Assembly: GCA_028716045.1 (NCBI GenBank)
Contig: JAQUQO010000001.1
Location: 725,176-789,175 of the forward strand
Length of the DNA: 64,000 nucleotides
Direction of reading: 5' to 3'
DNA from: Patescibacteria group bacterium
Lineage (GTDB): Bacteria; Patescibacteriota; Patescibacteriia; JAQUQO01
Of the stretch, positions 13,874 through 14,057 are shown piece after piece; within the stretch, counting starts at the first letter, position 1, and the number at the start of each line of letters is the position of its first letter. Below the pieces are notes generated by a model, which had not been told where the DNA came from, did no database searches, and saw only the letters and a list, made by a program, of their open reading frames with translations. The position numbers and the translations under genes are program-made.

Positions 13874-13945
13874 TACTTTTTCTGCCGCCATCGTCTAGGG
13901 GTTAGGACACCAGGTTTTCATCCTGGTAACCGGGGTTCGATTCCC
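13874..13945 (+). tRNA. tRNA-Glu (anticodon TTC)
   Basis: Cloverleaf read by eye: acceptor GCCGCCA/TGGCGGT, anticodon loop TTTTCAT, T-arm CGGGGTTCGATTCCCCG. The CCA end is not encoded. Confidence 0.8.
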
Positions 13946-14038
13946 CGTGGCGGTACTAGCTAGAAATTTTTACTAAACAAAATACGTCAGAGGGGTTCGC
14001 CCCGTCATCCGACGGGGCGCCCCGAGTTTATCTCGGGG

Positions 14039-14057
14039 CGATTCCCCGTGGCGGTAC
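14039..14057 (+). repeat. duplicate of the 3-prime 19 nt of tRNA-Glu (CGATTCCCCGTGGCGGTAC), preceded by GC hairpins
   Basis: Exact repeat of 13927-13945 lying about 110 bp downstream. It is preceded by the hairpin CGCCCCGAG-TTTAT-CTCGGGGCG. Confidence 0.7.

What the first reader, a model, noticed from the sequence alone, without database searches (positions are those of the whole stretch)
13874..14057. tRNA-Glu followed by a duplicate of its own 3-prime 19 nt, preceded by GC hairpins with a TTTAT loop
- CGATTCCCCGTGGCGGTAC (13927-13945) recurs exactly at 14039-14057.
- The 93-nt spacer consists of three GC-rich hairpins, the last being CGCCCCGAG-TTTAT-CTCGGGGCG abutting the repeat.
- Duplicated tRNA 3-prime ends are the classic footprint of site-specific integration into tRNA genes (attL/attR).
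- Here the intervening DNA is only about 100 bp, so this could be a remnant att site or a deliberate tRNA-end-mimic element.
- The same architecture recurs after tRNA-Ile.
Basis: partly seen in the sequence, partly recalled or inferred. Interest (0 to 1): 0.6.

Follow-up and report, generated by a model that had tools for sequence, protein, structure and literature searches.

The report
Hairpin-split leftover of a replaced tRNA end
The repeated tRNA-Glu tail is the displaced original 3' end of the gene, split by a conserved double-hairpin insert; it is the gene-less relic of a tRNA-targeting mobile cassette, widespread in ultra-small (CPR) bacteria, that normally carries a tiny GIY-YIG nuclease gene and that I could not find described.

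Summary
The 19-nt repeat is real, but the first copy lies at 13938-13956, not 13927-13945. The second copy is longer than reported. It reads GGGGTTCG (13992-13999), then a 39-nt two-hairpin insert (14000-14038), then CGATTCCCCGTGGCGGTACCA (14039-14059). That is the T arm and acceptor 3' half of tRNA-Glu, split at TTCG|A of the T loop.

The same insert, flanked by CG inside a TCGA, occurs at 23 distinct sites in other CPR genomes and metagenomes. Every site lies in a tRNA-derived T loop or a tRNA-Ser(CGA) anticodon loop, in either orientation, and nearly always beside an intact tRNA. About half carry an 83-95-aa GIY-YIG nuclease gene ending 3-5 nt before that tRNA.

Related TsaD/HSP20 loci are polymorphic. 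One has tRNA-Glu directly followed by HSP20. Another has a frameshifted GIY-YIG gene where the window has spacer plus remnant.

The best reading is an ORF-less relic of a nuclease-driven tRNA-gene replacement cassette, not an integrase att scar and not a tRNA-end mimic. The role of the hairpins is unresolved. tRNA-Ile and tRNA-Phe in the window carry similar remnants. I found no description in the literature held here.

The parts
13884..13956 (+). Intact tRNA-Glu(UUC) gene. It ends ..TGGCGGTAC with no encoded CCA (next bases are TAG). The same tRNA type, with the same GGTAC|TA junction, is seen in relatives L121 and L124.
   Evidence: ARAGORN; Rfam RF00005, 62.5 bits; relatives.
13938..13956 (+). 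First copy of the 19-nt repeat CGATTCCCCGTGGCGGTAC (tRNA nt 55-73 by the numbering, from the T loop to the first base after the discriminator).
13957..13991 (+). 35-nt AT-rich spacer (TAGCTAGAAATTTTTACTAAACAAAATACGTCAGA). It sits where relative L121 has a frameshifted GIY-YIG gene. It is presumed to be residual cassette DNA.
   Evidence: Sequence; L121 comparison.
13992..13999 (+). GGGGTTCG: the T-stem 5' strand plus first half of the T loop of the displaced tRNA-Glu remnant (tRNA nt 49-56).
   Evidence: exact match to tRNA nt 49-56.
14000..14038 (+). 39-nt double-hairpin insert. Hairpin A is CCCCGTC-ATCC-GACGGGG (14000-14017), followed by CG (14018-14019). Hairpin B is CCCCGAG-TTTAT-CTCGGGG (14020-14038). 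The insert is flanked by CG on both sides (13998-13999 and 14039-14040) within a TCGA target.
   Evidence: perfect inverted repeats. (same unit at 23 distinct tRNA-loop sites). (no Rfam family).
14039..14059 (+). CGATTCCCCGTGGCGGTACCA: the rest of the T loop, the T-stem 3' strand, the acceptor 3' strand, the discriminator and an encoded CCA of the displaced original tRNA-Glu 3' end. It contains the second 19-nt copy (14039-14057).
   Evidence: Its distance to the HSP20 ribosome-binding site matches the tRNA-to-HSP20 distance in L123 and L124.
14089..14565 (+). HSP20 gene. It is probably co-transcribed with tRNA-Glu, since no promoter-like site lies between them on the + strand. It anchors the orthologous comparisons.
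27204..27280 (+). Intact tRNA-Ile(GAU) with encoded CCA. The first copy of the 17-nt repeat is at 27266-27282.
27341..27409 (+). Second remnant of the same architecture. AACTC (27341-27345) is followed by a 47-nt insert (27346-27392) holding hairpins GTCCCGA-GTAT-TCGGGAC and CCCCGAC-TTTAT-GTCGGGG. Then comes CATCTGCGCCCACCAAA (27393-27409). With the insert removed, the piece equals tRNA-Ile nt 58-77 plus AA.
28097..28134 (+). 5' remnant of tRNA-Phe. GCCGAGGTAGC (nt 1-11) is followed by the 20-nt perfect palindrome CCTGCCTGCC|GGCAGGCAGG (28108-28127), then TCAGCGG (nt 12-18). It lies 90 nt upstream of the intact tRNA-Phe (28225-28297).

Best explanation
The region is the ORF-less relic of a tRNA-gene replacement cassette.

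Shown:
- Downstream of an intact tRNA-Glu lies the displaced 3' end of an earlier tRNA-Glu copy, still carrying its CCA and still abutting the native HSP20 leader.
- That remnant is split at TTCG|A of its T loop by a conserved 39-nt double hairpin flanked by CG.
- The same hairpin unit, the same target and the same 'intact tRNA plus hairpin-split remnant' layout recur across CPR phyla.
- They often come with an 83-95-aa stand-alone GIY-YIG nuclease gene packed 3-5 nt in front of, or shortly behind, the intact tRNA.
- The orthologous locus is polymorphic. One relative carries a decaying GIY-YIG gene at exactly this position.

Inferred mechanism:
- The nuclease breaks a resident tRNA gene in a loop.
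- Repair copies in a cassette that brings a whole or partial tRNA, so function is kept. A piece of the resident gene is left on one side.
- The nuclease gene later decays and is lost. This is the usual life cycle of homing endonuclease genes.

Role of the double hairpin (least certain):
- It is either the cassette terminus at the break, or a small fragment ligated into the 2-nt CG overhangs of a TCG^A cut.
- Either way it destroys the target site and breaks up the repeat homology in the remnant.
For: Anatomy in the window:
- Searches give the repeat, the hairpins and the 8-nt plus 19-nt collinear match to the tRNA.

The hairpin family:
- An exact-pattern scan of genome contigs and of metagenome contigs gave 34 places and 23 distinct insertions.
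- All have ..TCG on the left and CGA.. on the right. All lie in tRNA-derived sequence, 16 in T loops and 7 in tRNA-Ser(CGA) anticodon loops, in both orientations.
- Hairpin A shows compensatory changes: CCACGGG/CCCGTGG, CTACGGG/CCCGTAG, CCCCGGG/CCCGGGG, CCCTGTC/GACAGGG, CCCCGTC/GACGGGG.

The nuclease gene:
- The adjacent ORFs match GIY-YIG, Pfam PF01541, at E 1e-13 to 1e-17. Catalytic-type residues are conserved.
- Loci picked by GIY-YIG homology alone also sit on tRNA genes. L125, L130-132, L139 and L140 also carry hairpin-split remnants; L142 does not.

Orthologous loci:
- L124 reads ..GGTAC|TAAC.. and then HSP20, with no remnant.
- L123 has a different tRNA-Glu type directly followed by HSP20.
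- L121 has a 5' remnant with a double hairpin, then the intact tRNA-Glu (GGTAC|TA), then a frameshifted GIY-YIG gene (tblastn E about 1e-10), then HSP20.

Signs of mobility:
- Between genomes, similarity is confined to the remnant-hairpin-ORF-tRNA block. The hairpin (93-100% identical) is better conserved than the ORF (62-82%).
- In several loci the remnant differs in sequence from the intact tRNA, which indicates replacement by a foreign copy (tRNA-Leu loci, L070, L121, L130).
- Within the window, 6 of the 12 GC-rich perfect hairpins lie within 200 nt of tRNA genes, which cover 3.6% of the window (binomial P about 1.5e-6, my arithmetic).

Precedent:
- The GIY-YIG homing endonuclease SegB sits in the phage T4 tRNA gene cluster and leaves 2-nt 3' ends (PMC2330249, abstract).
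- In fungal mitochondrial DNA, genes are followed by degenerate homing endonuclease genes and then a partial C-terminal duplicate of the gene (PMC6279837).
Against: - No GIY-YIG homologue is present in the 64-kb window, so involvement of the nuclease at this locus rests on relatives.
- In the window the remnant and the intact tRNA are identical over the shared 8 + 19 nt. A purely local duplication would explain that equally well.
- The nuclease is only the catalytic domain, with no DNA-binding domain (Pfam covers residues 1-69 of 87). How it would find tRNA genes is unexplained.
- The intact tRNA keeps the same TCGA loop and should remain cleavable. The tandem units in L101 suggest that it does.
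- None of the remnants that lie downstream of the intact tRNA has an ORF in the spacer.
- No cleavage, transcript or empty/filled population data exist.
- L119/L124 and L120/L123 are assumed, not shown, to be the same genomes.
- The searches that found the family required an exact hairpin B, so that hairpin's sequence conservation is partly built in.
Confidence: 0.62

Rival explanations
1. Classical integrase scar. A tyrosine-integrase element integrated at the T loop of tRNA-Glu and was later almost entirely deleted, leaving attL (the intact tRNA) and attR (the second copy).
For: - The identity block runs from the T loop to the tRNA 3' end, and the displaced copy keeps CCA.
- T loops and anticodon loops are the classical integrase sublocations (Williams 2002, cited in PMC9897764).
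- tRNA gene fragments left by integration are common.
Against: - Only 82 nt lie between the repeats, and no integrase is among the neighbours (TsaE, TsaD, HSP20, VanW, ClpP).
- The would-be crossover region of attR is split by a 39-nt insert.
- The same tiny layout, with spacers of 8-70 nt, recurs independently at tRNA-Ile and in L092, L099, L105 and the tRNA-Leu loci. Repeated near-total deletion is implausible.
- The partner genes elsewhere are GIY-YIG nucleases, not integrases.
Confidence: 0.07
2. Hairpin mini-element plus rescue. The double hairpin is a small palindromic mobile element that inserts into TCGA in tRNA loops. Insertion kills the tRNA, and only cells that acquire a local partial duplication restoring an intact copy survive. 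No cassette or nuclease took part at this locus.
For: - CG lies on both sides in a TCGA target, and both orientations occur.
- The hairpin is far better conserved than neighbouring ORFs, and it is flipped between related cassettes (L116 versus L117).
- In the ORF-less cases the remnant and the intact tRNA are identical: window Glu, Ile and Phe; L092 and L105 with stubs on both sides.
Against: - The remnant always ends only 5-12 nt beyond the hairpin, which a random rescuing duplication would not give.
- The intact tRNA-Glu lacks CCA while the remnant has it. The GGTAC|TA junction is shared with a relative in which the tRNA is followed by a GIY-YIG gene.
- Many remnants differ from the intact tRNA, which indicates foreign replacement.
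- The hairpins are not scattered through the genome as mini-elements usually are.
Confidence: 0.22
3. Functional RNA. The hairpins plus the tRNA 3' end form a deliberate tRNA top-half or CCA-end mimic, or a processing, terminator or leader element for the tRNA-HSP20 transcript.
For: - The spacer plus remnant folds with z = -5.4. The predicted fold pairs upstream spacer bases with the acceptor 3' strand and leaves a free ..ACCA. The tRNA-Ile module folds in a similar way.
- Compensatory changes preserve hairpin A.
Against: - The module is absent from orthologous loci L123 and L124.
- L092 has only an 8-nt spacer and so no 5' partner.
- The unit works in both orientations and sits in many unrelated tRNA contexts.
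- There is no Rfam match even at E <= 5.
- The low folding energy is dominated by the two perfect hairpins.
- There is no T-run for termination.
Confidence: 0.05

Closest known systems
Free-standing GIY-YIG homing endonuclease genes, such as phage T4 SegB in the tRNA gene cluster (PMC2330249)
   Same: A small GIY-YIG nuclease gene is embedded among or next to tRNA genes. It presumably breaks the rival allele and is copied in together with flanking tRNA sequence. SegB leaves 2-nt 3' overhangs, which fits the CG found on both sides of the insert.
   Different: These proteins are the catalytic domain only (about 87 aa), without the DNA-binding domain of Seg and I-TevI enzymes. The elements are chromosomal in CPR bacteria and absent from viral contigs. 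They leave partial tRNA duplications and carry a conserved double hairpin. No activity has been shown.
Homing endonuclease gene insertions at gene 3' ends in fungal mitochondria that leave a displaced partial C-terminal duplicate (for example cob and atp6 in Endoconidiophora, PMC6279837; Allomyces atp6, from my own knowledge)
   Same: The layout is an intact gene, then a (degenerate) endonuclease gene, then the displaced partial 3' copy of the same gene. Endonuclease gene decay follows.
   Different: The target here is a tRNA gene rather than a protein gene. The displaced copy is split by a hairpin insert. The host is bacterial.
Integrase-mediated attL/attR duplications of tRNA 3' ends (Reiter 1989 and Williams 2002, as cited in PMC9897764)
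   Same: There is a direct repeat of the tRNA 3' part starting in the T loop or anticodon loop. The intact gene is rebuilt on one side and the original end is displaced.
   Different: There is no integrase and no kb-sized element. The crossover region is interrupted by a hairpin unit. Remnants of the 5' part are equally common.
Double-hairpin elements and GC clusters of fungal mitochondrial DNA, and bacterial REP/BIME-type palindromic units (from my own knowledge; GC clusters in PMC4478555)
   Same: They are very short (about 40 nt), GC-rich paired hairpins in AT-rich genomes. They are highly conserved in sequence, occur in either orientation, and are associated with stable-RNA genes.
   Different: No sequence relationship is known. 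Here the target is strictly TCGA in tRNA-derived loops. The units are not dispersed through intergenic DNA, and they are linked to GIY-YIG cassettes.
GIY-YIG-encoding, non-intron insertions at stem-loop tips of CPR rRNA genes (PMC11270868), and archaeal tRNA gene disruption by mobile elements (PMC3293823)
   Same: GIY-YIG genes sit in insertions within stable-RNA genes of the same bacterial group. In the archaeal case a mobile element leaves a tRNA 5' fragment next to an intact copy.
   Different: The rRNA insertions interrupt the functional gene itself. The archaeal case involves a recombinase and introns. Neither has the double hairpin or the compact nuclease-plus-tRNA packing.

Membership tests
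Tyrosine-integrase att site in a tRNA gene | Direct repeat identical from a point in the T or anticodon loop to the tRNA 3' end | tested here: met
   There are 19 identical nt from the T loop (nt 55) to the first base after the discriminator (nt 73). The second copy continues into CCA.
Tyrosine-integrase att site in a tRNA gene | Integrase gene and element-sized DNA between or next to the repeats | tested here: not met
   Only 82 nt lie between the copies. The neighbours are TsaE, TsaD, HSP20, VanW and ClpP.
Tyrosine-integrase att site in a tRNA gene | Contiguous core (crossover) sequence in attR | tested here: not met
   The T loop of the second copy is split by a 39-nt insert at TTCG|A.
Free-standing homing endonuclease cassette with target-gene duplication | Endonuclease gene inside the insertion | tested here: not met
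   No GIY-YIG homologue is found in the window (tblastn). One is present but frameshifted at the same locus in relative L121, and intact ones occur in many other loci.
Free-standing homing endonuclease cassette with target-gene duplication | Presence/absence polymorphism at the same site in relatives | tested here: met
   L124 and L123 have the tRNA directly followed by HSP20. L121 has the tRNA, a decayed GIY-YIG gene and then HSP20. The window has the tRNA, the spacer, the hairpin-split remnant and then HSP20.
Free-standing homing endonuclease cassette with target-gene duplication | Intact target gene restored, with the displaced fragment beside it | tested here: met
Free-standing homing endonuclease cassette with target-gene duplication | The enzyme cleaves the uninterrupted target | not testable with these tools
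   This needs biochemistry.
MITE/REP-like palindromic mini-element | Many near-identical copies with a defined target and a short target duplication | tested here: met
   There are 23 distinct insertions, all of the form T-CG-[unit]-CG-A.
MITE/REP-like palindromic mini-element | Dispersed through intergenic DNA of one genome | tested here: not met
   The window has only the two tRNA-linked copies. All 34 places found are tRNA-derived.
MITE/REP-like palindromic mini-element | Terminal inverted repeats and a cognate transposase | tested here: inconclusive
   The unit is quasi-palindromic about its central CG. The only linked protein is a GIY-YIG nuclease, which is not a known transposase.
tRNA intron (group I or bulge-helix-bulge) or any Rfam family | Covariance-model match, or an interrupted gene that is the only copy and must be spliced | tested here: not met
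   There is no Rfam hit at the gathering score or at E <= 5. An intact copy lies 36 nt upstream.

The most novel reading that the evidence does not exclude
The double hairpin is not a passive scar. It would be the recognition or handling module of a minimal, structure-guided mobile system. An 87-aa GIY-YIG catalytic domain with no DNA-binding domain would cut TCG^A in extruded tRNA-gene loops. It would then cut and re-ligate CG-ended hairpin fragments there. Together with a packaged tRNA gene, this would drive replacement of tRNA genes by foreign copies across CPR phyla. That would be a new class of mobile element that targets DNA by shape.
Probability: 0.12. Interest if true: 0.85.

Novelty: new variant of a known kind. 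Interest (0 to 1): 0.62.

Why it matters
- **Genome biology.** If the family is what it appears to be, tRNA genes in the very small genomes of CPR bacteria are being overwritten by selfish cassettes, each made of a tiny nuclease gene and a tRNA gene.
- **Explanatory reach.** This would account for tRNA pseudo-fragments, and for the contig breaks seen at tRNA genes in the relatives' assemblies. It could also account for patchy tRNA phylogenies, which I did not examine.
- **Annotation.** It warns annotators about hairpin-split tRNA pieces.
- **Enzymology.** It offers a very small nuclease with an apparently precise target (TCGA in tRNA loops) whose means of recognition is unknown.
- **Hairpin unit.** The conserved 39-nt double hairpin is a simple, searchable marker for a census.
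- **This window.** The practical message is modest. The repeat is a relic, not a working att site or RNA element.

Tried and rejected
- **Rfam.** The scan of the whole window at gathering scores and of 13800-14100 at E <= 5 gave only the tRNA. No ribozyme, intron or known motif covers the hairpins.
- **Nuclease search in the window.** tblastn with 11 GIY-YIG proteins found nothing.
- **Viral contigs.** The hairpin pattern and a GIY-YIG profile both found no relatives, so there is no sign of a phage vector.
- **tRNA top-half mimic.** The predicted folds suggested spacer bases pairing with the acceptor 3' strand. I dropped this because other members lack any such spacer and orthologues lack the module.
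- **RNA-derived copy.** CCA is present only in the remnant, which raised the idea of a copy made from mature tRNA. I rejected it as a general rule because the other downstream remnants (L092, L099, L105) have no CCA and share genomic 3' flanks.
- **tRNA-Gly.** A remnant upstream of tRNA-Gly has no collinear matches above chance.
- **Loose hairpin pattern.** Most of the 94 genome hits to it are ordinary terminators or a different '..GAGTTTA-hairpin-..AATGAC' family.
- **Pair counting.** A formal count on alignment A1 was not run, because MAFFT misaligned the variants with 4-nt loops. The compensatory changes were read directly.
- **Literature.** Seven full-text searches found no description of this arrangement.

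Full report
**1. What is in the sequence**

ARAGORN and Rfam place tRNA-Glu(UUC) at 13884-13955/6. The 19-mer CGATTCCCCGTGGCGGTAC occurs exactly twice, at 13938-13956 and 14039-14057, against 0.02 matches expected by chance.

The gene itself ends ..GGTAC|TAG and encodes no CCA. The second copy reads ..GGTACCA.

The second copy is longer than reported. GGGGTTCG at 13992-13999 matches tRNA nt 49-56. The downstream unit is therefore GGGGTTCG, then a 39-nt insert, then CGATTCCCCGTGGCGGTACCA. This is the T arm and acceptor 3' half of tRNA-Glu, split inside its T loop.

The insert consists of two perfect hairpins joined by CG and flanked by CG on both sides:
- CCCCGTC-ATCC-GACGGGG at 14000-14017
- CCCCGAG-TTTAT-CTCGGGG at 14020-14038

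The same arrangement is present in an independent Logan assembly, L002.

The window comes from a Patescibacteria (CPR) metagenome-assembled genome, GCA_028711565.1, on an 812-kb contig. The tRNA lies between tsaD and an HSP20 gene.

**2. The same thing elsewhere in the window**

*tRNA-Ile.* After tRNA-Ile (27204-27280) comes a 60-nt AT-rich spacer. Then comes AACTC, then a 47-nt insert, then CATCTGCGCCCACCAAA. The insert holds GTCCCGA-GTAT-TCGGGAC and CCCCGAC-TTTAT-GTCGGGG. With the insert removed, the sequence equals the tRNA-Ile 3' end.

*tRNA-Phe.* Upstream of tRNA-Phe, nt 1-11 of the tRNA are followed by the 20-nt palindrome CCTGCCTGCC|GGCAGGCAGG and then nt 12-18 (28097-28134).

So three of the six tRNA genes in the window have a hairpin-split partial copy beside them. 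The 64 kb contain only 12 GC-rich perfect hairpins (stem of at least 7 bp). Six of them lie within 200 nt of a tRNA gene, a zone covering 3.6% of the sequence (binomial P about 1.5e-6, my arithmetic). The hairpins are therefore tied to tRNA remnants and not spread through the genome.

**3. The hairpin unit is a family**

A scan of 185,579 species genomes for CCCCGANTTTATNTCGGGGC gave mostly ordinary terminators. It also gave a clear family in CPR genomes. A stricter pattern scanned against JGI metagenomes added 22 loci.

Together there are 34 places and 23 distinct insertions:
- Every one has ..TCG on the left and CGA.. on the right, that is T-CG-[unit]-CG-A.
- Every one lies in tRNA-derived sequence.
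- Sixteen lie at TTCG|A of a T loop (tRNA-Ser, Arg, Glu, Leu and others).
- Seven lie at CTCG|AAA of the tRNA-Ser(CGA) anticodon loop.
- Both orientations occur.

Hairpin A varies with compensatory changes, so the hairpin itself is selected for. The variants are CCACGGG/CCCGTGG, CTACGGG/CCCGTAG, CCCCGGG/CCCGGGG, CCCTGTC/GACAGGG and CCCCGTC/GACGGGG.

The unit is quasi-palindromic about its central CG. No Rfam family matches it, and it is absent from viral contigs.

**4. Architecture and partner gene**

Two layouts recur:
- **Remnant upstream of the intact tRNA.** A tRNA 5' fragment runs up to TCG. Then come the hairpin unit, 4-12 more tRNA bases, a small ORF, and an intact tRNA 3-5 nt after the stop codon. 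Examples are L013, L080/L100, L101 (two tandem units), L109, L110, L114 and L116. The hairpin is flipped in L005, L032, L098, L107 and L117.
- **Remnant downstream of the intact tRNA.** An intact tRNA is followed by an 8-70-nt spacer, a 7-11-nt T-stem piece, the hairpin unit and the 3' fragment. Examples are the window, L092/L097, L099, L105 and the tRNA-Leu(CAA) loci.

The ORFs match GIY-YIG (Pfam PF01541, E 1e-13 to 1e-17). They are 83-95 aa, which is the catalytic domain only. Their nearest solved relatives are UPF0213 proteins. The Tyr, Tyr-x-Gly, Arg, His and Glu positions are conserved. Homologues come almost entirely from Patescibacteria.

Loci chosen by protein homology alone, without reference to any hairpin, show the same picture:
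- L125 has the remnant-upstream layout with the same hairpin unit.
- L139 and L140 have 5' remnants of tRNA-Gln with different GC-rich hairpins in the D arm.
- L130-132 have the ORF and tRNA flanked by a 5' stub and a hairpin-laden 3' remnant of a different tRNA-Ser.
- L142 has the tRNA followed by the ORF.

In several loci the remnant differs in sequence from the intact tRNA (tRNA-Leu loci, L070, L121, L130). There the intact gene is a foreign replacement.

Between genomes, nucleotide similarity is confined to the remnant-hairpin-ORF-tRNA block. The hairpin (93-100% identical) is better conserved than the ORF (62-82%).

**5. Orthologous loci**

Using TsaD and HSP20 homologues I recovered relatives:
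- **L124** (HSP20 64% identical) reads ..AACCGGGGTTCGATTCCCCGTGGCGGTAC|TAACTATTTAATTCATTAAGGAGGTTTATG. This is the same tRNA end, without CCA, followed directly by HSP20. There is no spacer, hairpin or remnant.
- **L123** has a different tRNA-Glu type, again directly followed by HSP20.
- **L121** spans the whole interval. After tsaD comes a 5' remnant of the other tRNA-Glu type, split in its anticodon loop by a double hairpin. Then comes the intact tRNA-Glu (GGTAC|TA), a frameshifted GIY-YIG gene (tblastn E about 1e-10), and HSP20.
- **L119**, the tsaD side from the same sample as L124, ends in a tRNA-Glu 5' fragment carrying three hairpin inserts.

The locus is therefore polymorphic, and a decaying nuclease gene sits exactly where the window has its 35-nt spacer plus remnant. 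In the window, the remnant's CCA end lies about as far from the HSP20 ribosome-binding site as the tRNA end does in L123 and L124. This marks the remnant as the original gene end.

**6. Interpretation**

*Best reading.* This is the late stage of invasion by a nuclease-plus-tRNA cassette, with the ORF already lost. The inferred steps are:
1. The nuclease breaks a resident tRNA gene in a loop.
2. Repair copies in DNA that restores an intact tRNA.
3. A piece of the resident gene is left behind.

There are two precedents:
- The GIY-YIG homing endonuclease SegB lies in the T4 tRNA gene cluster and leaves 2-nt 3' ends (PMC2330249).
- Fungal mitochondrial genes are followed by decayed endonuclease genes and a displaced C-terminal duplicate (PMC6279837).

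*Role of the hairpin unit.* This remains uncertain. Three features fit a fragment ligated into 2-nt CG overhangs of a TCG^A cut:
- CG ends on both sides of the unit
- a palindromic TCGA target
- occurrence in both orientations

Its position also destroys the target and splits the repeat homology (8 + 19 nt in the window). These are inferences, not results.

*Main rival (0.22).* The hairpin inserts first and a local duplication rescues the gene.

*Rejected or unlikely readings.* The integrase-scar reading fails on three points: the 82-nt interval, the absence of any integrase and the split core. The tRNA-mimic or processing-element reading fails on absence from orthologues and lack of a general fold.

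**7. Novelty**

Seven full-text searches turned up the following:
- group I introns in Patescibacteria tRNAs (PMC13011429)
- GIY-YIG genes in non-intron rRNA insertions of CPR bacteria (PMC11270868)
- integrase-derived tRNA fragments (PMC9897764)
- an archaeal model of tRNA gene disruption (PMC3293823)

None describes this nuclease, tRNA and double-hairpin arrangement. I rate it a new variant of a known kind, namely free-standing endonuclease cassettes that duplicate part of their target gene. The instance in the window is only a relic.

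Noticed in passing
window 28097-28134: tRNA-Phe nt 1-11, then the perfect 20-nt palindrome CCTGCCTGCC|GGCAGGCAGG, then tRNA-Phe nt 12-18. It lies 90 nt upstream of the intact tRNA-Phe. This is a 5' remnant split by a different hairpin.
   Followed up: partly
window 30375-30530: GC-rich, hairpin-rich stretch upstream of tRNA-Gly. It includes CCTGCCTGC..GCAAGCAGG, which resembles the tRNA-Phe palindrome, and TCCCGCT-ACAAG-AGCGGGA. There is no collinear tRNA-Gly remnant above chance.
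   Followed up: partly
window 25470-28450: The 16S rRNA gene is followed by tRNA-Ile, tRNA-Val(GAC) rather than tRNA-Ala, a NUDIX gene (27513-28091), tRNA-Phe and tRNA-Pro. There is no 23S rRNA gene in the window.
   Followed up: no
L009, L010, L045, L049, L050, L064, L081 (motif positions listed): A separate recurring CPR motif..GAGTTTA-CCCCGAnTTTATnTCGGGG-C..AATGAC.., often enclosed by a further stem. It is not next to tRNAs and has no Rfam match. It shares the TTTAT-loop hairpin with the tRNA-linked unit.
   Followed up: partly
L058 about 6110-6230: The same hairpin type (CCCCGAT-TTTAT-ATCGGGG) sits inside a sequence with the RNase P RNA signature GGAGGAAAGTCCGGAC. Rfam did not call it at the gathering score.
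   Followed up: no
L101 6680-7590: Two tandem units, each a tRNA-Ser(CGA) 5' fragment, the hairpin unit and a GIY-YIG ORF, precede the intact tRNA. This suggests repeated insertion into the intact copy.
   Followed up: partly
L092 about 5130-5400; L105: The intact tRNA is flanked on both sides. A 12-14-nt 5' stub lies upstream (followed by a hairpin in L092), and the hairpin-split 3' remnant lies downstream.
   Followed up: partly
L119, L120, L122, L123, L124 (contig ends): The short-read contigs of relatives break inside or right next to tRNA-Glu. This is what repeated tRNA pieces would cause, so such loci are probably under-assembled in metagenomes.
   Followed up: no
L093 about 5100-5215: A tRNA-Asp-like copy in which the whole T arm is replaced by CCCCGAC-ATAAA-GTCGGGG. 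An intact tRNA-Asp lies about 330 nt away, with a probable ORF between them.
   Followed up: no
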